46,431 bases of DNA. Origin: a phage. The notes under the pieces were generated by a model. That model saw only the letters and a list, made by a program, of their open reading frames with translations, was not told where the DNA came from and searched no databases. Position numbers and translations under genes: made by a program. The first letter of the stretch is position 1. Every line of letters starts with the position of its first letter. The stretch is taken from NCBI GenBank assembly GCA_021146965.1, contig GCA_021146965.1_4847.1; one strand, given 5' to 3'. Below, piece after piece: positions 1,515 to 45,554 of the stretch.

Positions 1515-1540
1515 AAGCCGCATGAAGCGGCTTTTAATTT
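1515..1540 (+). terminator. rho-independent terminator
   Basis: hairpin AAGCCGC-atga-GCGGCTT followed by T-rich run directly after stop of 1137..1511. Confidence 0.6.
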
Positions 1541-1616
1541 GGTGGACACGGACGAATTTGAACCTTCAATCAGCCGATTATTAGTCGGTTGCTTTAACCA
1601 ATTAAGCTACGCGTCC
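1540..1616 (-). tRNA. tRNA-like gene (77 nt, encoded CCA; anticodon loop CUAAUAA, anticodon reads AAU, identity uncertain)
   Basis: minus-strand sequence GGACGCG-TA-GCTT-AATTGGTTA-AAGC-A-ACCGA-CTAATAA-TCGGC-TGATT-GAAGG-TTCAAAT-TCGTC-CGTGTCC-A-CCA folds as cloverleaf: 7-bp acceptor stem (one G-U), 4-bp D stem with GG in D loop, T8/A9, U33, T-loop TTCAAAT; one mismatch each in anticodon and T stems. Confidence 0.45.
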
Positions 1617-2194: not shown

Positions 2195-2914
2195 ATGGCT
2201 ATTTGTGCAAATGATAAAGGCATTCTGGTCGGTCGCATGACCCGACTGTTCCTTGCTGAAGGGTGCGGCGACGCAGTTCCGGATGCAGGCGACTGGAAGT
2301 ATTTAGGCTCAACCACCAGTAAAGGCGTTGACTACTCGCCGCAGACCACTACGTCGGAAGCGGATACCGCTGGCGGCTTTGTTTCTACTCTCGTTACCAG
2401 CTCTGATATGACCATCAGTGCAGAGGTAGAAATCCGCAAGAATGACCCGAGCGATGAGTTTGGCTTCCATCGTCTTGTTGAGATTTACACCACTGAACTG
2501 AAGGCTCGCCGCCAGCCTTCCTTGTGGGTGCGTCAGGTGACTGGTGCAACTATCGTTACCGCGTATTGCAACATCACCAGCATCAGCTACGAAGGTGGCA
2601 CGAACGATATCGTTACTGGTAGCCTTGAGTTTAAGGTTTACGATTCTGACAGCGTTACCGTAGAAAGCCTTGAACCTCTGGCATTCACTACCTACCTGCA
2701 ATCAACTGGCACGGCCGGAAGCCCGTTAACCGTTGCTGTTGAAGGTGGCGTTGCTCCTTACACTTATGTATGGCGCAAAGATGGCGCAGTTGTTGATGGT
2801 GAGTCTGGCGCATCTCTGGCAAGCCCTACCGCTGGCGTGTATACCGTCACGGTAACTGATTCATCTACCGCCCCGGAAATTATCATCAGCACGGCGTGCA
2901 CGGTATCCCGATAA
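2195..2914 (+). CDS. major tail protein with C-terminal Ig-like (Big_2-type) domain
   Basis: 239-aa ORF with GGAGA RBS; C-terminal ~70 aa (TVAVEGGVAPYTYVWRKDGAVVDGESGASL...YTVTVTD) is a typical Ig-like decoration domain of siphovirus major tail proteins; followed by terminator. Confidence 0.6.
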   Translation: MAICANDKGILVGRMTRLFLAEGCGDAVPDAGDWKYLGSTTSKGVDYSPQTTTSEADTAGGFVSTLVTSSDMTISAEVEIRKNDPSDEFGFHRLVEIYTTELKARRQPSLWVRQVTGATIVTAYCNITSISYEGGTNDIVTGSLEFKVYDSDSVTVESLEPLAFTTYLQSTGTAGSPLTVAVEGGVAPYTYVWRKDGAVVDGESGASLASPTAGVYTVTVTDSSTAPEIIISTACTVSR

Positions 2915-2916
2915 AG

Positions 2917-2945
2917 AAAAGCCCCGAAAGGGGCTTTGTTTTATT
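2917..2945. terminator. rho-independent terminator (likely bidirectional)
   Basis: AAAAGCCCC-gaaa-GGGGCTTT hairpin followed by GTTTTATT; lies between convergent genes 2195..2914(+) and 2941..3141(-). Confidence 0.65.
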
Positions 2946-13429: not shown

Positions 13430-14470
13430 TTAAAATCCTTCAATTGGAGTTGGTTTATGTTCGGTTTTTGTTTCTTCCTGCTGTTCTGGCTGATGATGTT
13501 GCGGTTTAGCCAGTTTTGCAGGGTTGAAATTATCCTGTGGAGTTATTACCACAGGAGGTAATTGCTCATCATTGATAAAAGACTCAATGCGATCATATTC
13601 AGCAGCAGAAGCAGCGAGAGAAGGCCATATTGCACGAATCTTATCTTTCAGGTTATCAGGTATTGATTTCGCCTCTTCCTTCAGTCCTTCCATTCCTTTT
13701 GCTGCTGAAAGCTGAAGTCGTGAGCGCCATGATTCAAACTCTTCGTCAACTTTAACACCAGAGTCCACCCATTTGATGAGTCCTCGACCATGAGCCTCTC
13801 CAATATAGCCATGACGAACGCTTTCACGACCAGACTCAAAGAAGATGGGGCGTAGCTCTTCTGGTAATTTGGTGAACTCCTGAATTTTTCCTCCATCGTG
13901 CATCATCATGCTCACGGTCATCTCGAACATGAAATCTTTCTCGCACACTGGCTGTAACCCAAGTGATACAGGTTCCTTCGGGTTTGCGAAGTCAGTTTTC
14001 TGGCGAGCGCGAAGACAGACAATGATATGCATATTGCTTTGTAGCATGGCATTCATGAACTTCTTGTGTTCAGCTTTGGCGCGCTTCCAGTCAGCCATCT
14101 TTTTACCGTTAAGCAGCGGCTTTTCAGCAATCTCCGTGCAACTGCCTTCACCTTCCCATTCATGCGAACCTGAATCAATAACAAGAACCTTAACGCCGGC
14201 AGCCTGAAACTCTTCAATGGCCTGACGGTAACGGGCCGGGCTGAATGGAGCATACATATCAGCGTGCAGGAATTTGCCATCAAGGATGTTTGAGTACAGG
14301 CGACCGCGACCATTTTCAGTATCAAGGAATCCGATTTCTTCTGGTGAGTCAACCATCCCGCGAGCCAGCTTAAGTGCGCTGTATGTTTTTCCGCTACCAG
14401 ACTGGCCTGAAATACCGATGACTACACGAGAACCTGAACGCTCTGCTGGTTTAATATTGAGAATACCCAT
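13430..14470 (-). CDS. Sak4-like RecA-fold ATPase (ssDNA annealing/recombination)
   Basis: Walker A GISGQSGSGKTYSA near N-terminus, ~340 aa, adjacent to ssb; start placed at ATG 14470 (GAGGTG 6 nt upstream) rather than GTG 14479. Confidence 0.7.
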   Translation of the reverse strand: MGILNIKPAERSGSRVVIGISGQSGSGKTYSALKLARGMVDSPEEIGFLDTENGRGRLYSNILDGKFLHADMYAPFSPARYRQAIEEFQAAGVKVLVIDSGSHEWEGEGSCTEIAEKPLLNGKKMADWKRAKAEHKKFMNAMLQSNMHIIVCLRARQKTDFANPKEPVSLGLQPVCEKDFMFEMTVSMMMHDGGKIQEFTKLPEELRPIFFESGRESVRHGYIGEAHGRGLIKWVDSGVKVDEEFESWRSRLQLSAAKGMEGLKEEAKSIPDNLKDKIRAIWPSLAASAAEYDRIESFINDEQLPPVVITPQDNFNPAKLAKPQHHQPEQQEETKTEHKPTPIEGF

Positions 14471-14487
14471 TTTCATCACCTCACTAA

Positions 14488-28568: not shown

Positions 28569-30915
<2,347 letters not shown>

Positions 30916-30998
30916 GGGCTTGGTTTTGTCTTGTGAGCATACACAGAACAAATATTATTATCGCATAGCACAATATCTCTACGATGCTGAATATTGTT

Positions 30999-31643
30999 TT
31001 AATCATCCAGTTTCACGCCTGGAATTTTTCCTACTGCAATGGCTTCATAAATTAGCTTGGCCTCGTCCTCGCGCCTGTAATCTTGAGCTGCCATTTCTAA
31101 CACCGCGCAGATAGACTCAAGTACAGCCTCATGCTTCTTTTCTGCTTCTGTGCGTAGTGGTTTTAGGCTTTCCGGTACGAAGCAGCATGACCGACCAGCA
31201 CCACCTTCATCCCAATAGCAAACAGCCACATCGTTTCCGTCCGTTGTTGTCTTGTGCGCTACAACTTCCATTTCAGTGCCAGCATCAGGAATCCAGTCAT
31301 TGCAGTATCCTAACTTTGGATTAAAGAAGAATTCTACTTTTGCACCAACTGGCGGCAGGCCTTCTCCATTCCATGTCTGCTTTTGCAATGCTGCTAGCGC
31401 GGATTCATACAAGTCGCGAGTTATCATACAATAATCCGTGGCTACGCTGACATAGCGACCGGGTATGGGGATTGCCACGGTGTACTGAAATGGCACATCA
31501 AAACCATCGCTATATCCCTTTGGGAAACAAAAAGCAATTGTGATACTGTCACCATTGAAATCACCAACTCGACACCTCTCAGCACCATCAGGCCACCCAC
31601 CACGCTTAGGTAATTCTTGAACTAACAGGTCGATAAGTTTCAT
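30999..31643 (-). CDS. hypothetical protein
   Basis: 214-aa ORF on opposite strand to flanking morphogenesis and lysis genes; no recognised motif. Confidence 0.5.
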   Translation of the reverse strand: MKLIDLLVQELPKRGGWPDGAERCRVGDFNGDSITIAFCFPKGYSDGFDVPFQYTVAIPIPGRYVSVATDYCMITRDLYESALAALQKQTWNGEGLPPVGAKVEFFFNPKLGYCNDWIPDAGTEMEVVAHKTTTDGNDVAVCYWDEGGAGRSCCFVPESLKPLRTEAEKKHEAVLESICAVLEMAAQDYRREDEAKLIYEAIAVGKIPGVKLDD

Positions 31644-31942
31644 TTTGTTTCTCCCAATGCTTTATTAACCGCGGCACGTGCATTATCCAGAGCGCGACGC
31701 TTGCTTGATGTTGTCCAGCATTTTCCGGAGTGGTCGTCGTAGATTTCCAGAAGTTGCTGGAGTGCTGATAACAGGTCAGGAGATGCCGCTATTAGCCTTG
31801 CGTTATGCCATTGCTCGGTTTTATCACCGTTATATGTTGGAGTGAATGCAACCTCGACACCAATATCCGAGATAACATCTGGCGCGTTATCATCACCAAC
31901 AACAACTTCCCATTTTCCATGCGTACCTTTAAATTCTTTCAC
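31640..31942 (-). CDS. small protein, paralog of 45127..45468 (Ead/Ea22-like?)
   Basis: shares KEFKGT.G.W N-terminus and AA(S/A)P(D/E)LL.ALQ..L / NKALG C-terminal motifs with 45127..45468; probable GTG start 31942 preceded by GAGGT; 5' ends of the two paralogs share 19 identical nt. Confidence 0.5.
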   Translation of the reverse strand: MKEFKGTHGKWEVVVGDDNAPDVISDIGVEVAFTPTYNGDKTEQWHNARLIAASPDLLSALQQLLEIYDDHSGKCWTTSSKRRALDNARAAVNKALGETK

Positions 31943-31950
31943 ATCCAACC

Positions 31951-32094
31951 TCACTTAATATACTCAACAATCTCAACTTCACGCATCTGCACCAGGCCAA
32001 ATGGTGCAACCACCTTACCGCACGGACGGATTTTGATTTGCTCAAGGTTGAACACTCCGCAGCGTCCGTTTTCTTTGAATTTGACCATTACCAT
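31951..32094 (-). CDS. small hypothetical protein (47 aa)
   Basis: ATG ORF MVMVKFKENGRCGVFNLEQIKIRPCGK...; below track cut-off. Confidence 0.3.
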   Translation of the reverse strand: MVMVKFKENGRCGVFNLEQIKIRPCGKVVAPFGLVQMREVEIVEYIK

Positions 32095-32096
32095 AA

Positions 32097-32267
32097 TTAA
32101 TACCCGTTTTTCTTGGCTAATTGTTGCGCACGTTTCTTCGTGTACCCACAGGCCATCAGGCGCTTGACCTCGTTGCGGCGCCTTGCGAAATGGTACTCAC
32201 GAGAATTAAATGCACATTCGTTGCTAAAGTTAACATTACGTGGATTCATCTTCATCACCTCATTCAT
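32097..32267 (-). CDS. small basic hypothetical protein (56 aa)
   Basis: ORF MNEVMKMNPRNV...KRAQQLAKKNGY; internal ATG 32249 has better RBS spacing. Confidence 0.3.
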   Translation of the reverse strand: MNEVMKMNPRNVNFSNECAFNSREYHFARRRNEVKRLMACGYTKKRAQQLAKKNGY

Positions 32268-32353
32268 CACTTGATGTAGATACTATGCACCACCAACCAA
32301 TCTACGTCAACACCATTGTGATAGAATTAATCATTATTTGAACTGGAGGCAGA
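32268..32353. promoter_or_regulatory. divergent promoter/operator region with inverted motif pair
   Basis: TTGATGTAGAT (32271-32281) and inverted CAATCTACGTCAACA (32298-32312) between divergent operons; GGAGG RBS at 32345-32349. Confidence 0.45.
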
Positions 32354-32632
32354 ATGAAACTATCGCAACGAGGCGTGGAGACGTTTGGAATTACCGATGC
32401 CGTGAATATATCGCCTTACATCACTACCGAGACAACGCAGAATCAGTTCGACGCGCTGGCAAGTCTTGCCACCGACATTGGCATTTACGCGTTCCGTAAA
32501 TCAACGCTTCTGAAGAAGCACAACCTCCGCTGCTTCTCATGTGCTGTTGCGCATTTCATCGCGTGGGGCGAGAAGACTGGCGACAAAGCAAAACGCAAAG
32601 CTGAAAAAGAGGTTTACTGGTATGGCTATTAG
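32354..32632 (+). CDS. GH24 (P22 gp19-type) lysozyme-like protein lacking the catalytic N-terminal core (probable gene remnant)
   Basis: 92 aa; C-terminal part TTQNQFDALASLATDIGIYAFRKSTLLKKHNL matches the conserved Q.Q.DAL.SL..N.G..AF..ST.L..LN segment of P22-type lysozymes, but the E/D/T catalytic region and ~55 aa are absent; 3' end overlaps endolysin start. Confidence 0.5.
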   Translation: MKLSQRGVETFGITDAVNISPYITTETTQNQFDALASLATDIGIYAFRKSTLLKKHNLRCFSCAVAHFIAWGEKTGDKAKRKAEKEVYWYGY

Positions 32633-33322: not shown

Positions 33323-33794
33323 ATACTGGCGACCGCTGGCAATTATTATAATTGTTGCCGCTGGCGCGTTGTGGGTGGCAAATAAAGTGTCCGGTTATGG
33401 CGAGCAACAATATGCCGCCGGATACGCGAAGGCAGTCGCAGAACAGAAGGCCGCAGACGAACAAGAGGAGCAACGACGCAATGCAGAACTGCAAAAGATT
33501 CAGGCCGACGCACAGCAAAGGATTGATGCTGCGCGCAATGATGCTGTTAATGCTGCCGCTAAGTCTGGCAGGTTGCAGCAACAACTCACCAGTATCCGCA
33601 AGCAGCTCGTCGGATATTCCACCGCTGAGTCCATTGGCAACCCAGCCGCAGAAACCGGAGTTTTGCTTGCAGACGTGCTCCGCAAATCTGTCGAAAGAAA
33701 TCAACAGCTGGCAGATTACGCTGACAGGGGGAGAGAGGCAGGATTGACGTGTGAGGCACAGTATAATTCTCTGCGTAATAAAAAAGCCCCGTGA
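33303..33794 (+). CDS. Rz-like inner-membrane spanin (i-spanin)
   Basis: N-terminal TM helix (WRPLAIIIIVAAGALWVA) followed by coiled-coil periplasmic domain; contains embedded +1-frame lipoprotein ORF. Confidence 0.7.
   Translation: MMSILVKYWRPLAIIIIVAAGALWVANKVSGYGEQQYAAGYAKAVAEQKAADEQEEQRRNAELQKIQADAQQRIDAARNDAVNAAAKSGRLQQQLTSIRKQLVGYSTAESIGNPAAETGVLLADVLRKSVERNQQLADYADRGREAGLTCEAQYNSLRNKKAP
33526..33747 (+). CDS. Rz1-like outer-membrane lipoprotein spanin (o-spanin), embedded in Rz
   Basis: MLRAMMLLMLPLSLAGC lipobox signal peptide, Pro-rich mature region, entirely inside Rz in another frame (lambda-type embedded architecture). Confidence 0.65.
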   Translation: MLRAMMLLMLPLSLAGCSNNSPVSASSSSDIPPLSPLATQPQKPEFCLQTCSANLSKEINSWQITLTGGERQD

Positions 33795-33808
33795 TGGGGC
33801 TTTGTTTT
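33783..33808. terminator. bidirectional rho-independent terminator
   Basis: AAGCCCC-gtgat-GGGGCTTTGTTTT hairpin between convergent Rz (+) and 33829..34206 (-). Confidence 0.65.
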
Positions 33809-34471: not shown

Positions 34472-34773
34472 TATTTAATCTCTCCGTTCAGTTCATTAAC
34501 AATTAACGTTGCATAGCCAGCAATATCTTTCCAGCTGTCATCATAAGTCGGGTCGCCATTCAGAATGCGCCCAATCTTGTGCTGAATCATGTCGAGCGCC
34601 TCGCGTTGACTTGGTGTGAGATTGCGCCAGCCATCTACCTTGCGCATCACATCTTTCAACTCCTGCATAATTTCAGCGCCGTCTTTGAATTTACCGTATC
34701 GACTACCGCGTTCGGTGATGAGTCGCTCTGTTGCGTCAGTATGGCGCTTATCGCCCGTGATTTGTGAACTCAT
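34471..34773 (-). CDS. hypothetical protein
   Basis: 100-aa ORF, ATG start. Confidence 0.45.
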   Translation of the reverse strand: MSSQITGDKRHTDATERLITERGSRYGKFKDGAEIMQELKDVMRKVDGWRNLTPSQREALDMIQHKIGRILNGDPTYDDSWKDIAGYATLIVNELNGEIK

Positions 34774-35260
34774 TGTGATGCATTCTCCTGAATTCTTTTA
34801 TTTTTGCTTCTGCTTCTCTTATGTCGGAAAAGTAACCAACTGTGAATCTTTTGCCATTTACTCCAACTCTTGCATGCCACTTGTTGTGCGATGAACTCCA
34901 GTTAACCCCCTTGATACCGCTAGTGTTGTTTTTGTTCATTGCTTTGTTGTGGCTATTCTCAAATTTGCTGGCCTCCCTTAAATTGCACGCCCTGTTGTCA
35001 TTGCGAATGCCATTAATGTGGTCAATCATTTCACTTGCTGGCGCGCCATGAATGCATATCCATGCCAATCTGTGAGCAAGAAAAGCCCTACCGCAAAGAA
35101 TTATTTGCACATATCCATCTGGCTTTAAGTAGCCAGCCACACTCCCTTTTTCTGCAATCCTATTCCTTGTCTTTAGCCATTTAAATTCCCCAGTTAGTGG
35201 ATTGTAGTAAAGGTAACTCAATATAAACTCCCTACTCGGCTCATCTCTCCTATGCCTCAT
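34748..35260 (-). CDS. HNH homing endonuclease with AP2 domain (paralog 3 of 4)
   Basis: IDHINGIRNDNRACNLREA plus AP2-like SGIKGVNWSSSHNKWHARVGVNGKRFTVGYF. Confidence 0.8.
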   Translation of the reverse strand: MRHRRDEPSREFILSYLYYNPLTGEFKWLKTRNRIAEKGSVAGYLKPDGYVQIILCGRAFLAHRLAWICIHGAPASEMIDHINGIRNDNRACNLREASKFENSHNKAMNKNNTSGIKGVNWSSSHNKWHARVGVNGKRFTVGYFSDIREAEAKIKEFRRMHHNEFTNHGR

Positions 35261-35490: not shown

Positions 35491-35535
35491 TTGACGTTTC
35501 TACATCATTTAGTCAATACTTGTTGACGTAGATTG
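35491..35535. promoter_or_regulatory. divergent promoter/operator region with tandem TTGACG... motif copies
   Basis: TTGACGTTTCTACATCA (35491-35507) and TGTTGACGTAGATTG (35521-35535) between divergent genes 35257..35463(-) and 35563..35760(+). Confidence 0.45.
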
Positions 35536-35562
35536 TACCACAACGGAAAAGGTGATGTGGAA

Positions 35563-35820: not shown

Positions 35821-36015
35821 ATGGCGCATGACGAACTGTACGAAGAATCGTTAATCCAGAGGTTGAATGAAGTTGAGCGCACTCGCGAATGGCTGGAGTG
35901 CGAGTTACGAGAAGTGCGCAACCGCCTGCAACGCAAGCGCAGTCAGCAAAGAGATGTCATCGACTGGTCTGGGGGTACACCTAAATTTAACAATCTGGGA
36001 GAATGGTTGAAATGA
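35821..36015 (+). CDS. hypothetical coiled-coil protein
   Basis: 64-aa ORF. Confidence 0.4.
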   Translation: MAHDELYEESLIQRLNEVERTREWLECELREVRNRLQRKRSQQRDVIDWSGGTPKFNNLGEWLK

Positions 36016-36542
36016 GCAACATTAGTAAGGAAAGCATTTTAAAGTTCCTCCAGCATGATGAAAATACAGGAAACTTTCTATGGATTGATAATTTCTCAAG
36101 AAAATCAAAGAAAGGGAAGGTGGCTGGAGGTATTACATCGCATGGGTATTGGAGAATTCAACTCCCCATCGGGAGGTTTTACGCACACAGAATGGCGTGG
36201 ATTGTTTGCAATGGAGATATACCAAACGGATATGAGATTGATCACATAAATGGGAACAAGAAAGATAATCGCATCAGCAACCTAAGATTGGTCACAAGAG
36301 GTCAAAATGTTATGAATGTAGGCGTGAAAAACAATAATACAAGCGGAGTTAAGGATGTTGTTTGGGACTCTTCGCGAGAAAGGTGGAGGGTTCAAATTAC
36401 AGCCAATGGCAAGCATTATTATGGAGGTAGATTCTCGTCAATAACACAAGCAAAAGAGGAGAGGAACAGGCTCATAAAGATGGTTCACGGGAAATTTTTG
36501 AATACAAAAGGTGAGCAATATGACACTACTAATGAACGATGA
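36012..36542 (+). CDS. HNH homing endonuclease with AP2 domain (paralog 4 of 4)
   Basis: IDHINGNKKDNRISNLRLV plus AP2-like SGVKDVVWDSSRERWRVQITANGKHYYGGRF; ATG 36012 with GGGAGA RBS. Confidence 0.8.
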   Translation: MSNISKESILKFLQHDENTGNFLWIDNFSRKSKKGKVAGGITSHGYWRIQLPIGRFYAHRMAWIVCNGDIPNGYEIDHINGNKKDNRISNLRLVTRGQNVMNVGVKNNNTSGVKDVVWDSSRERWRVQITANGKHYYGGRFSSITQAKEERNRLIKMVHGKFLNTKGEQYDTTNER

Positions 36543-43489: not shown

Positions 43490-43495
43490 TAAAAG

Positions 43496-43522
43496 AAAAG
43501 CCCCGCAAGGGGCTTTTTATTG
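43496..43522. terminator. bidirectional rho-independent terminator
   Basis: AAAAGCCCCG-caa-GGGGCTTTTT hairpin between convergent genes. Confidence 0.65.
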
Positions 43523-44317: not shown

Positions 44318-45127
44318 TCACATCTTCTCCAGAATTGCCATAACCTCGTGAATGTCAGCAACAGGAATCTGAATAAATTCCTCATCCTCTGCCACCACAT
44401 GACCAGCAGGGAGAATTACATGGTCAGCTGGCTTCAGTAACTCAATCAGGCGGTCTACTGGCTTAATCTTTTTCGACTTCAGCACTTTGGCTGTGACCTT
44501 ATCCTTGCCTTGCGCCTTCGCTTCTTCGACCGCTTCGTCGATAACTTTTACCGCATCATCTCCATGTTCGCGCGTTACCGCTACGGCATTTGCATAGCTG
44601 ATCTGTCCGGCACTGATTCGCGCTTTTACTTCCGCAGGCACATCACCCAACGACAGGTGCATTTGCACGTCAGATACTGAGCGGCCTACCTTCTTGGCGA
44701 TTTCCTCGTTTGTCCAGCCAAAACCTTTCAGACGCGTGTAAGCCTTTGCGCGTTCAAACGGGTCAAGTTGCTTGCCCTGACTTGATGACACCATGAATGC
44801 GATTTTGTCAGCCTCGTCGCCAGTAAAATCCTTACACTCAATGCGAACGATTGGTGCGCCGCGCTCAATGGCTCGCAATGCGCCGAGGTAGCGATGCTGC
44901 CCATCAAGAATGCGGATACCTTTATCGTCAGGAATAACTGTTAATGCTGGCAATGGCTGACCTGACTCCCAGCACTGCGCGAAATATTCCACATGCTGCT
45001 CATCTGCTTCACGGATGTTGTATCCCGGCTCCAGATAGATTTGCTCTACTGGCACGAGGTAGGTTTTGTTAACAGCGATACCGTTACGCGTTTCTTTGTC
45101 TGAATAGATTTTGCTTAGTGTTTTCAT
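44318..45127 (-). CDS. ParB-like protein (ParB/Srx N-terminal domain plus HTH)
   Basis: ILDGQHRYLGALRAIERGAPIVRI matches ParB/sulfiredoxin-fold core; central TNEEIAKKVGRSVSDVQMHLSL resembles ParB HTH. Confidence 0.6.
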   Translation of the reverse strand: MKTLSKIYSDKETRNGIAVNKTYLVPVEQIYLEPGYNIREADEQHVEYFAQCWESGQPLPALTVIPDDKGIRILDGQHRYLGALRAIERGAPIVRIECKDFTGDEADKIAFMVSSSQGKQLDPFERAKAYTRLKGFGWTNEEIAKKVGRSVSDVQMHLSLGDVPAEVKARISAGQISYANAVAVTREHGDDAVKVIDEAVEEAKAQGKDKVTAKVLKSKKIKPVDRLIELLKPADHVILPAGHVVAEDEEFIQIPVADIHEVMAILEKM

Positions 45128-45468
45128 TATTTCTTTCCTAATGCTTTATTGATAGATTCTTCAGCTAACAGCAATTCATCTGGGTATTGTTCATTCCAGT
45201 TTTGTTTGTATGCCTTGCTAAGCATTTTTTGCAGAGCTTCAAGCAACTCAGGTGCTGCTGCCATTAAATTAAAGTCATGCTCAACACTGCTATCAATCTC
45301 CCAATGCATCCCGTTGTATTTAGCACCCTTGCTAGAGAAGGCAATATTTCTGTCATCGTCGTGGTGACAGCCAGGTGTGTCATCAGTTCGACAAGACGGG
45401 TAAATAGCTGCGCAACCCCCGCGAATGTCTGCGACCCACGGCCCGGGCGTACCTTTAAATTCTTTCAT
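45127..45468 (-). CDS. small protein, paralog of 31640..31942 (Ead/Ea22-like?)
   Basis: MKEFKGTPGPW N-terminus and AAAPELLEALQKML / NKALG C-terminal motifs shared with 31640..31942; start ATG 45468 with GAGGTG RBS. Confidence 0.5.
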   Translation of the reverse strand: MKEFKGTPGPWVADIRGGCAAIYPSCRTDDTPGCHHDDDRNIAFSSKGAKYNGMHWEIDSSVEHDFNLMAAAPELLEALQKMLSKAYKQNWNEQYPDELLLAEESINKALGKK

Positions 45469-45492
45469 TTTCATCACCTCTAATATTTATTG

Positions 45493-45554
45493 TTGTTTCT
45501 ACGTCACTAACTATAAACGCACCACCAATCTACGTCAACAGGAATATGCTAAAA
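45493..45554. promoter_or_regulatory. divergent promoter/operator region with two motif copies
   Basis: TTTCTACGTCA (45497-45507) and CAATCTACGTCAACA (45526-45540); on minus strand these give TTGACG - 17 nt - TATAGT; TAAAAT at 45549-45554 for rightward genes. Confidence 0.45.

What the first reader, a model, noticed from the sequence alone, without database searches (positions are those of the whole stretch)
31640..31942. Two paralogous small proteins with identical 5' ends at distant loci
ORFs 31640-31942 and 45127-45468 share N-terminal (MKEFKGT.G.W) and C-terminal (AA.P.LL.ALQ..L, NKALG) motifs, and nucleotides 31921-31939 equal 45447-45465 exactly (GCGTACCTTTAAATTCTTT). This indicates a duplicated translation-initiation module or a recent recombination between the two accessory cassettes. 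Each gene heads a leftward operon.
Basis: seen in the sequence. Interest (0 to 1): 0.4.

Follow-up and report, generated by a model that had tools for sequence, protein, structure and literature searches.

The report
Two mosaic small phage accessory paralogues
Two small, non-essential phage genes in this Skate-like Salmonella/E. coli phage are old paralogues of a very large, catalogued but uncharacterised family (Pfam PF27050, PHROG 1273), and their identical 21-base start encodes the family's conserved N-terminal peptide, which related phages use as a crossover point for swapping protein modules.

Summary
Genes A (31640-31942, -) and B (45127-45468, -) are homologous (31% identity, E=5e-10). 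They share an exact repeat, which is 21 nt rather than 19 (31921-31941 = 45447-45467).

- **Family:** both genes belong to PHROG 1273 / Pfam PF27050 'Phage_P22_Y8K6' (P22 orf78 is probably the namesake), not Ead/Ea22.
- **Repeat:** it is coding sequence for the conserved cap KEFKGT. The ribosome-binding sites and start codons differ, so it is not a duplicated initiation module.
- **Recent conversion:** 7% of random pairs of family genes share the same 21 nt, and everything else between A and B is diverged. Recent conversion in this genome is not supported.
- **Operons:** B heads its operon. A is the third of four genes in its operon.

The family has a fixed layout: cap, variable beta module, conserved NAxLIAAAPELLEALQ helix, variable helical module, KALGE tail. 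All four combinations of the A and B modules occur in related phages. One recombinant has its breakpoints in the 21-nt cap and in the central motif.

A locus-A orthologue is deleted in viable phage seszw mutants. No solved structure resembles the confident AlphaFold models. The function is unknown. An early host-takeover or counter-defence binder is my inference, at about 0.3.

The parts
31640..31942 (-). Gene A: 100-aa member of PHROG 1273 / Pfam PF27050. GTG start; TGA stop overlaps the ATG of the downstream 214-aa gene (ATGA).
   Evidence: The AlphaFold2 model has pLDDT 88.7, with three strands followed by three helices.
45127..45468 (-). Gene B: 113-aa paralogue in the same family. ATG start; TAA stop overlaps the ATG of the ParB-like gene (TAATG).
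   Evidence: The AlphaFold2 model has pLDDT 91.5.
31921..31941 (-). Copy 1 of the exact 21-nt repeat. On the coding strand it reads TG AAA GAA TTT AAA GGT ACG C, that is start-codon TG, codons 2-7 (KEFKGT) and one further base. It is the 5' crossover zone for N-module exchange.
   Evidence: The L027 breakpoint is mapped.
45447..45467 (-). Copy 2 of the exact 21-nt repeat, in gene B.
31805..31909 (-). Variable N-terminal beta module of A (residues 12-46). In related phages this segment is replaced by other module types, including the B type and unrelated PHROG modules.
   Evidence: The conservation profile falls to 0.39-0.45 here.
31757..31804 (-). Conserved central motif of A (NARLIAASPDLLSALQ, residues 47-62). 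It contains the invariant Pro55 and Leu58 and is the 3' crossover zone for N-module exchange.
31640..31756 (-). C-terminal helical module plus the KALGE tail of A (residues 63-100 and the stop codon). In 22 of 23 sampled Skate-like loci it is conserved as one DNA block together with the first ~20 codons of the next gene; L029 carries the B-type C module instead.
45277..45435 (-). N-terminal module of B (residues 12-64), with conserved Cys19, Gly-Cys-His 33-35, Arg40-Asn41 and Trp56. The same module sits at locus A in Seszw_1 and BS5.
45229..45276 (-). Conserved central motif of B (DFNLMAAAPELLEALQ, residues 65-80).
45127..45228 (-). C-terminal helical module of B (KMLSKAYKQNWNEQYPDE...) plus the NKALGKK tail and stop codon.
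45510..45538 (-). Sigma-70-like promoter (TTGACG-17-TATAGT) directly upstream of B. It contains the shared 17-mer TGTTGACGTAGATTGGT.
32282..32310 (-). Sigma-70-like promoter (TTGACG-17-CATAGT) of the four-gene operon that contains A. It carries the same 17-mer.
45466..45480 (-). Ribosome-binding/start module GAGGTGATGAAAATG of B. It is shared with the first gene of A's operon (32247-32261) and with a site at 14468-14482, but not with A.
30999..31643 (-). Downstream 214-aa gene (PHROG 7798, function unknown), overlapping A's stop (ATGA; likely translationally coupled). It is itself mosaic: the first ~20 codons and the 3' end are conserved and the middle is variable.
31951..32094 (-). Upstream 47-aa gene (PHROG 21280). 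It is the conserved block that abuts the start of A.
44318..45127 (-). ParB-like gene (HTH_ParB, KorB) immediately downstream of B.
30901..30921 (.). Terminator-like hairpin, scored on both strands, closing A's operon.
43496..43517 (-). Terminator-like hairpin closing B's operon.

Best explanation
A and B are anciently diverged paralogues of one very large family of small (about 100 aa), mildly acidic, cytoplasmic phage accessory proteins. The family is catalogued as Pfam PF27050 'Phage_P22_Y8K6' and PHROG 1273.

**Architecture.** Three short conserved elements frame two interchangeable variable modules. The conserved elements are the N-terminal cap M-K-E-F-K-G-T-x-G-x-W, a central helix motif NAxLIAAAPELLEALQ, and a C-terminal tail AAIxKALGE. 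The variable modules are an N-terminal beta module and a C-terminal helical module.

**The repeat.** The 21-nt identity is the coding sequence of the cap. It is kept by selection on the peptide plus shared codon preference. It is not a translation-initiation element and not a fresh gene-conversion tract.

**What the conserved elements do in evolution (shown).** Because the cap and the central motif are conserved in DNA, they serve as short homology patches. Recombination at these patches, between phages and between the two loci, swaps modules. All four N/C combinations of the A and B modules exist in related phages, with breakpoints in the cap and the central motif.

**Expression and essentiality.** Both genes lie downstream of near-identical sigma-70-type promoters, so early co-expression by host RNA polymerase is inferred. 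An orthologue at locus A is dispensable for lytic growth (shown, in phage seszw).

**Function (inferred, about 0.3).** The protein is a modular binder used in host takeover or counter-defence. The variable N module would set target specificity. The conserved elements would supply the fold or a common docking function.

The confidence of 0.7 applies to the family assignment, the explanation of the repeat and the module exchange, not to the functional guess.
For: **Homology and family**
- A and B align with E=5e-10. Both match PHROG 1273.
- Every listed homologue but one (the 67-aa fragment P0205) carries a precomputed PF27050 hit, including proteins 94-95% identical to A and B. The family name appears.
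- A profile built from A, B and 46 homologues finds 37,968 cluster representatives at E<=1e-3. It also hits P22 orf78 at E=4e-9.

**Architecture**
- The alignment shows an invariant or near-invariant cap, central motif and tail around unalignable segments.

**Shuffling**
- The module contingency table has 18 four-gamete squares, and the B-type N module is seen with at least 14 C types.
- At locus A, L026 and L027 carry the B-type N module with the A-type C module. L079 carries the A-type N module with the B-type C module.
- At DNA level, L027 follows the locus-A sequence up to ...GAATTTAAAGGTACGC. It then follows the B orthologue closely (only scattered mismatches in the alignment) for about 200 nt up to ...AATTTAATGGC, and then returns to A type.
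- Locus A is a patchwork of conserved and variable blocks that ignore gene boundaries. The whole B ORF is a variable cassette.

**Not an initiation module**
- The ribosome-binding sites differ.
- Synonymous sites of the cap vary across the family, and 7% of random pairs share the 21 nt.

**Expression**
- Both promoters contain the exact 17-mer TGTTGACGTAGATTGGT.

**Non-essential**
- The seszw mutant MZ375301.1 lacks the gene after codon 7, plus the downstream sequence (L026 2862-3845) that holds the homologue of the 214-aa gene, and is a viable phage (PMC9825161).

**Context for the functional guess**
- In lambdoid prophages the family sits in the PL operon just after N and around kil, sometimes in two copies. 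In P22 it sits between ral and gene 17.
- In Seszw_1 the B slot holds a PHROG 14587 'anti-restriction protein' instead.
- No genome returned by tblastn carries the B-type N module at both loci.
- The family's median pI is 5.0.
Against: - No experiment or annotation gives a function. There are no hits in PADLOC or NCBIfam, and I found no literature on the family.
- The counter-defence idea therefore rests on genomic position and diversity alone.
- Early expression is inferred from promoter consensus, not measured.
- The PF27050 model itself is missing from the local Pfam copy. Direct scoring of A and B was not possible, and one search shows no Pfam hit.
- The conserved motifs could be conserved purely for folding. 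Their use as crossover points is then a by-product, not a function.
- Some locus-A variants lack the cap entirely, so the cap is not indispensable for whatever the C module does.
Confidence: 0.7

Rival explanations
1. The identical 5' ends record a recent gene-conversion or recombination event between the two loci within this genome.
For: - The 21-nt patch is the only perfect repeat among the 20 largest direct-repeat families listed for the window.
- Module transfer between the two loci has happened in relatives, with a breakpoint in this patch.
- Both loci in Skate-like phages prefer GAA/AAA/ACG codons, whereas other clades use GAG/AAG/ACT. This is compatible with some homogenisation.
Against: - The identity stops after 21 nt, and the flanks on both sides are unrelated.
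- Given the same peptide, the expected probability that all six codons are identical is 0.059, and 38 of 528 random pairs of family genes share the same 21 nt.
- Close relatives vary only at GGT/GGC in this patch.
- In this genome A and B carry different N and C modules, so no tract has been transferred.
Confidence: 0.1
2. The repeat is a functional nucleic-acid element: a shared translation-initiation or 'downstream box' module, or a small regulatory RNA or protein-binding site, duplicated at both genes.
For: - Codon 2 is AAA in all 33 distinct family genes examined, never AAG. This fits the known preference for AAA as the second codon in highly expressed E. coli genes (my own knowledge, not tested here).
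- The patch is A/T-rich.
Against: - The Shine-Dalgarno sequences, spacers and start codons differ between A and B.
- B's true leader module GAGGTGATGAAAATG is shared with two other genes but not with A.
- Codons 3-7 vary at synonymous sites across the family.
- No Rfam family matches here.
- Some locus-A genes have no cap at all.
Confidence: 0.07
3. The genes are Ead/Ea22-like proteins, as suggested by the first reader and by the label 'Ead protein' on the A orthologue in phage ZK22.
For: - The depositor of PQ126513.1 labelled the 303-bp orthologue 'Ead protein'.
- Ead_Ea22 genes occur in the same lambdoid early-left regions.
Against: - There is no PF13935 hit at E<=1.
- The family profile gives E=1.7 against a genuine PF13935 protein and does not hit P22 EaD. 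It does hit P22 orf78.
Confidence: 0.03
4. B, and by extension the family, is a dedicated accessory factor of the ParB-like and clamp-like replication/partition module with which it is co-transcribed, rather than a host-directed protein.
For: - B's stop overlaps the ParB-like gene's start (TAATG).
- The operon also encodes a protein with weak similarity to the beta clamp (DNA_pol3_beta_2 E=0.0095, below Pfam's cut-off).
Against: - In relatives the same slot upstream of a >98% identical ParB holds unrelated genes: PHROG 14587 in Seszw_1, a 207-aa gene labelled 'EaC protein' in ST1UNAM, and a different PF27050 variant in Skate.
- A sits in a different operon, and family members in lambdoid prophages are not next to ParB.
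Confidence: 0.08

Closest known systems
Pfam PF27050 'Phage_P22_Y8K6' / PHROG 1273; P22 orf78 (NC_002371 29076-29312, between ral and orf87/gene 17) is probably the namesake, inferred from its ~8.6 kDa size and the profile hit
   Same: - The central AAPELLEAL helix motif and the AAIxKALG tail are shared (A1 profile against P22 orf78, E=4e-9).
- Both are small proteins located in an early operon among accessory genes.
- PF27050 is precomputed on homologues 94-95% identical to A and B.
   Different: - P22 orf78 is shorter (78 aa). Only its C-terminal part aligns (profile positions 55-115), so the MKEFKGTPGPW cap is not matched.
- The window's phage is a virulent Skate-like siphovirus, not a lambdoid temperate phage, and it carries two copies at separate loci.
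- The function of the family is unknown in every case.
Mosaic module exchange at conserved boundary ('linker') sequences in lambdoid phages, as in the modular theory of phage evolution (recalled from memory, not read here)
   Same: Short conserved DNA patches flank variable segments. Recombinants with breakpoints in these patches are observed.
   Different: Here the exchanged units are sub-genic protein modules of about 100-200 nt inside a 300-bp gene. The 'linkers' are themselves conserved coding motifs of the protein. Exchange also occurs between two paralogous loci of the same genome type.
Early-operon anti-restriction and host-takeover genes (lambda/P22 ral; PHROG 14587 acidic 'anti-restriction protein')
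   Same: - The genomic niche is the same: the first genes after an early promoter, next to ral in P22.
- The gene occupies the same slot as PHROG 14587 in Seszw_1.
- Both are small, acidic and non-essential.
   Different: There is no sequence or fold similarity to ral, ArdA, Ocr or any PADLOC or NCBIfam model. No anti-restriction phenotype has been reported for this family.
Ead/Ea22-like proteins (Pfam PF13935)
   Same: They occur in the same early-left accessory regions of lambdoid prophages. One depositor used the name 'Ead protein' for the A orthologue.
   Different: No detectable homology.

Membership tests
PHROG 1273 (unknown function) | Significant full-length match to the PHROG profile. 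| tested here: met
   A: E=9.9e-22 over residues 1-99. B: E=4.7e-18 over residues 1-112.
Pfam PF27050 Phage_P22_Y8K6 | A score above the gathering threshold against the PF27050 HMM. | not testable with these tools
   The model is absent from the local Pfam copy, and one search returns nothing. Indirect evidence: every homologue listed except the 67-aa fragment P0205, including P0001 (94% identical to A) and P0121 (95% identical to B), carries a precomputed PF27050 hit. The family name is shown.
Pfam PF27050 Phage_P22_Y8K6 | Homology to P22 orf78, the probable namesake protein (inferred from its ~8.6 kDa size). | tested here: met
   A profile of A, B and 46 homologues hits only ORF 29079-29348(-) of P22, which is orf78, at E=4e-9. 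The match covers the central motif to the tail.
Pfam PF27050 / PHROG 1273 architecture as defined here | Cap (F4, K5, G6, T7, W11), central motif (P55, L57, L58, A60, L61) and tail (K94, A95, L96, G97). | tested here: met
   All of these positions are invariant or >=90% conserved in 48 sequences, and both A and B have them.
Ead/Ea22-like (Pfam PF13935) | A match to the Ead_Ea22 HMM. | tested here: not met
   No hit for A or B at E<=1.
Ead/Ea22-like (Pfam PF13935) | Homology to a genuine Ead_Ea22 protein or to P22 EaD. | tested here: not met
   The A1 profile gives E=1.7 against the PF13935 protein of L072, and it does not hit P22 eaD.
Known anti-restriction or anti-defence proteins (PHROG 14587, ArdA/Ocr-type) and defence proteins (PADLOC) | Sequence match to a model of the family. 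| tested here: not met
   PHROGs returns PHROG 1273 for both genes, plus one weak second hit for A (phrog_17194, unknown function, E=0.011), and no anti-restriction family. PADLOC and NCBIfam return nothing at E<=0.1.
Known anti-restriction or anti-defence proteins | Demonstrated relief of a defence system. | not testable with these tools
   This needs plating assays on defence-carrying hosts.

The most novel reading that the evidence does not exclude
PF27050 may be a combinatorial 'cassette' protein family. Three conserved coding linkers (cap, central helix, tail) would be maintained partly because they allow rapid recombinational shuffling of target-recognition modules between phages and between paralogous loci. 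The result would be a diversifying set of small early proteins that bind and neutralise, or evade, variable host defence components. That would make it a recombination-driven specificity system, analogous in logic to tail-fibre or immunity-region mosaicism but operating inside a 100-aa protein.
Probability: 0.2. Interest if true: 0.6.

Novelty: new member of a known kind. Interest (0 to 1): 0.3.

Why it matters
For this window the result is mostly clarifying:
- The repeat is explained.
- The 'Ead' label that circulates in GenBank for this gene is shown to be unsupported.
- The genes are placed in a catalogued family.

The wider point is that PF27050 is very large. A profile search finds about 38,000 clusters at 50% identity. 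The family is typically placed in early operons beside ral, kil and gene 17, often occurs in two copies per genome, and is visibly shuffled module by module, yet it has no known function and no solved structure.

If the variable modules are specificity determinants for host targets, the family would be a rich and easily engineered source of phage counter-defence or host-takeover factors. The natural chimeras found here already form a swap series for testing which module carries which activity.

Tried and rejected
- **Pfam (local copy):** no hit for A or B, because the PF27050 model is absent. Ten longer distant relatives also gave no informative domain.
- **NCBIfam and PADLOC:** nothing.
- **PDB sequence profile search:** only a chance-level hit to Cet1, E=0.6.
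- **BFVD Foldseek:** only uncharacterised phage proteins.
- **AFDB50:** the library was not available.
- **Literature searches:** PF27050, phrog_1273, P22 orf78, and the peptide strings KEFKGTPGPW and AAPELLEAL returned nothing relevant.
- **Supplements of the Silas-lab accessory-gene screen (PMC12373910):** the family motifs do not occur in them.
- **Rfam on the whole window:** only one tRNA, nothing at either locus.
- **A third paralogue in the window:** none. The profile hits only A and B.
- **My first module-clustering attempts:** one failed on a wrong regular expression, and the next merged the A and B C-modules through the shared tail. Trimming the tail fixed this.
- **A dedicated partnership with the ParB-like gene:** set aside, because the slot holds unrelated genes in relatives.
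Full report
**1. What the window is.** Megablast of both regions against phage records finds 156 and 174 records. Most are Salmonella and E. coli siphoviruses of the genus Skatevirus and relatives (Skate, Seszw_1, BS5, Bas78/Bas80) at about 90-95% identity. At 46.4 kb, the window is about the size of a complete genome of this type.

**2. Checking the observation.** On the minus strand, gene A runs 31942..31640. It has a GTG start preceded by GAGG, and a TGA stop that overlaps the ATG of the next gene. Gene B runs 45468..45127, with an ATG start and a TAA stop that overlaps the ATG of a ParB-like gene.

BLASTP of A against B gives 31% identity over the full length with E=5e-10. The 19-mer occurs exactly twice, with none expected in shuffles. 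The exact identity actually extends to 21 nt, 31921-31941 = 45447-45467, and is the only perfect repeat among the 20 largest direct-repeat families listed for the window. On the coding strand it reads TG-AAA-GAA-TTT-AAA-GGT-ACG-C: two bases of the start codon, codons 2-7 (KEFKGT) and one further base.

**3. Operon structure.** A is not at the head of an operon. A promoter-like site (TTGACG-17-CATAGT, 32310..32282) is followed by four genes: a short first gene (32270/32249..32097), a 47-aa gene (32094..31951), A, and a 214-aa gene (31643..30999). A terminator-like hairpin scored on both strands at 30901-30921 closes the unit.

B is the first gene after TTGACG-17-TATAGT (45538..45510). It is followed by the ParB-like gene, a 57-aa gene and a protein with weak beta-clamp similarity (DNA_pol3_beta_2 E=0.0095, below Pfam's cut-off; its best PHROG is labelled RusA-like), then a terminator at 43517..43496.

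The two promoters share an exact 17-mer, TGTTGACGTAGATTGGT. A third copy with two mismatches faces rightward at 35521-35537. This suggests one co-regulated set of host-polymerase promoters, probably early. That timing is inferred, not measured.

**4. The repeat is not an initiation module.**
- The ribosome-binding regions differ: GAGGTTGGAT-GTG for A and GAGGTGATGAAA-ATG for B.
- B's leader GAGGTGATGAARATG recurs at 32247-32261 (the first gene of A's operon) and at 14468-14482, but not in front of A.
- Among 33 distinct family genes that encode M/V-KEFKGT, synonymous sites vary: GAA/GAG, TTT/TTC, AAA/AAG, GGT/GGC/GGA and ACG/ACT. Only codon 2 is invariably AAA.
- The expected probability that two such genes are identical across all six codons is 0.059. 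In practice 38 of 528 random pairs (7%) share the same 21 nt.

The identity is therefore what a conserved peptide plus shared codon preference produces. Outside the patch, the A and B DNA sequences are essentially unrelated, so there is no sign of a recent conversion tract in this genome.

**5. What the proteins are.** Both match PHROG 1273, a family of unknown function (E=1e-21 and 5e-18). The local Pfam copy gives no hit. However, every homologue listed from the 5.8-billion-protein collection except one 67-aa fragment carries a precomputed PF27050 hit, including proteins 94-95% identical to A and B. Gene tables name this family 'Phage_P22_Y8K6'.

A profile of A, B and 46 diverse homologues (alignment A1) hits only orf78 in P22, at E=4e-9. 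This 78-aa ORF lies between ral and orf87/gene 17 in the early-left operon and is probably the family's namesake, judging from its ~8.6 kDa size. The profile does not hit P22 EaD, and it scores E=1.7 against a genuine Ead_Ea22 protein. The Ead/Ea22 idea, and the 'Ead protein' label on the A orthologue in phage ZK22, are therefore unsupported.

The same profile finds 37,968 cluster representatives (50% identity clusters) at E<=1e-3 among 1.84 billion proteins. The family is very large.

**6. Architecture and shuffling.** The alignment shows near-invariant positions in three places: the cap (F4, K5, G6, T7, W11), the central helix (P55, L57, L58, A60, L61) and the tail (K94, A95, L96, G97). The segments between them cannot be aligned across subtypes.

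I split 324 proteins at these motifs and clustered the pieces. This gave 88 N-module types and 116 C-module types. The B-type N module is joined to at least 14 different C types, and there are 18 four-gamete squares.

Mapping genes to loci in 23 Skate-like contigs gave the following:
- Locus A, between the 47-aa and 214-aa genes, nearly always keeps the A-type C module.
- The N part at locus A varies widely. It can be A-type, several other cap-bearing types, the B type (Seszw_1 = L026, BS5 = L027), or unrelated modules without the cap (PHROG 24647 and 34533).
- The reciprocal chimera, A-type N with B-type C, also sits at locus A (L079).

All four combinations of this window's modules therefore exist in nature.

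At DNA level, L027 follows locus-A sequence through ATGGAAGAATTTAAAGGTACGC. It then follows the B orthologue L024 closely (only scattered mismatches) for about 200 nt, and switches back to A type at ...AATTTAATGGC|GCATC.... The 5' breakpoint lies inside the flagged repeat and the 3' breakpoint lies at the central motif.

A conservation profile shows locus A as alternating conserved and variable blocks that ignore gene boundaries:
- Conserved: 32260-32360, 31930-32109, 31580-31779 and 30880-31059.
- Variable: 32110-32259, 31780-31929 and 31060-31579.

At locus B the whole ORF is a variable cassette between the conserved promoter/leader and the ParB-like gene. In relatives the slot holds another PF27050 variant (Skate), a PHROG 14587 acidic 'anti-restriction protein' (Seszw_1) or a 207-aa gene labelled 'EaC protein' (ST1UNAM). 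No phage record found by tblastn carries the B-type N module at both loci.

**7. Structure.** AlphaFold2 gives confident models: A has pLDDT 88.7 and B has 91.5. Each has a short beta-sheet followed by helices (three in A; two long helices, a short turn and a final helix in B). The first ten residues (the cap) are coil with lower confidence.

**8. Essentiality.** The CiPGr genome-reduction study of the Skatevirus phage seszw (PMC9825161) deposited many viable mutants. In MZ375301.1 the locus-A gene is cut immediately after codon 7 (MKEFKGT-stop). The adjacent downstream sequence (L026 2862-3845), which holds the homologue of the 214-aa gene, is also deleted. At least 27 further mutant records show the same truncated match pattern and probably carry the same deletion. 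The gene is therefore dispensable for lytic growth on the laboratory host.

**9. Function.** Nothing establishes a function. The evidence is contextual:
- The family sits in early operons. In lambdoid prophages it is immediately after N and around kil, sometimes in two copies. In P22 it is between ral and gene 17.
- In Skate-like phages it shares a slot with a putative anti-restriction gene.
- It is non-essential, very diverse and modular.

This is the profile of host-takeover or counter-defence genes. I propose, at roughly 0.3 probability, that these proteins are small modular binders whose N module sets target specificity.

The rival that B serves the ParB-like/clamp-like module is weakened because the slot holds unrelated genes upstream of a ParB that is >98% identical.

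**10. Verdict.** Its explanation is ordinary for phages: two old paralogues of a catalogued but uncharacterised family, whose conserved N-terminal cap yields a 21-nt identity. The added value is that this cap and the central motif are actual crossover points for sub-genic module exchange between the two loci and among phages. Novelty: new member of a known kind. Interest: about 0.3.

Noticed in passing
window 32296-32312 (-), 45524-45540 (-), 35521-35537 (+): A 17-nt extended promoter motif, TGTTGACGTAGATTGGT, occurs exactly at the heads of both leftward operons. A third copy with 2 mismatches faces the rightward genes that start near 35533. Only 0.12 matches are expected by chance. It looks like a co-regulated, probably early, promoter set, or possibly an operator.
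   Followed up: partly
window 14468-14482 (-), 32247-32261 (-), 45466-45480 (-): A ribosome-binding/start module, GAGGTGATGAARATG, is repeated three times (0.01 expected by chance). Two of the three copies are at first genes of leftward transcription units; the unit at the 14468 copy was not examined. This is the real 'shared initiation module' in the window, and gene A does not have it.
   Followed up: partly
window 30999-31643 (-): The 214-aa gene downstream of A (PHROG 7798, function unknown) is itself mosaic. Its first ~20 codons and its 3' end are conserved in nearly all Skate-like phages, while the middle is only 30-57% identical or is replaced. A's C module and this gene's N-terminus form one conserved DNA block, which could reflect a functional pair or translational coupling.
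   Followed up: partly
L026/L078 (phage seszw, MZ375301.1 and at least 27 other mutant records): The engineered genome-reduced seszw mutants from PMC9825161 are in GenBank as separate 'complete genomes'. They delete the locus-A family gene after codon 7. This also explains the odd fusion protein P0113 ('seszw2t2_62').
   Followed up: yes
L003 1432-1692 (Seszw_1), L076 2042-2665 (ST1UNAM), L002 2625-2996 (Skate): The slot occupied by B is a swap site. In relatives it holds an 86-aa acidic PHROG 14587 'anti-restriction protein', a 207-aa gene labelled 'EaC protein' with no Pfam hit, or a different PF27050 variant.
   Followed up: partly
window 1540-1616 (-): The window has a single tRNA gene. 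ARAGORN calls it tRNA-Ile with the unusual anticodon AAT, and it scores 56 bits against Rfam's tRNA model.
   Followed up: no
window 34751-35260 (-) and 36003-36539 (+): Two HNH_3 endonuclease ORFs are present, one with a sub-threshold AP2-domain hit (E=9.7e-05, below Pfam's cut-off). They are likely homing endonucleases inserted among small early genes.
   Followed up: partly
window 2913-2942, 33779-33808, 43492-43521: Three copies of a near-identical GC-rich hairpin, AAAAGCCCCG..GGGGCTTTT, form a terminator family at operon ends. One of them closes B's operon.
   Followed up: no
L072 8001-8348 and 8862-9155 (Klebsiella variicola prophage): Two PF27050 paralogues flank the kil gene in the PL operon of a lambdoid prophage. 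Carrying two diverged copies per genome is therefore not peculiar to this window.
   Followed up: partly
B residues 19, 33-35, 40-41, 56 (window about 45301-45414): The B-type N module has invariant or near-invariant residues across 37 homologues: Cys19, Gly-Cys-His 33-35, Arg40-Asn41 and Trp56. In more distant relatives the Cys of the G-C-H triplet is not kept, but the His is. This could be a metal or ligand site.
   Followed up: no
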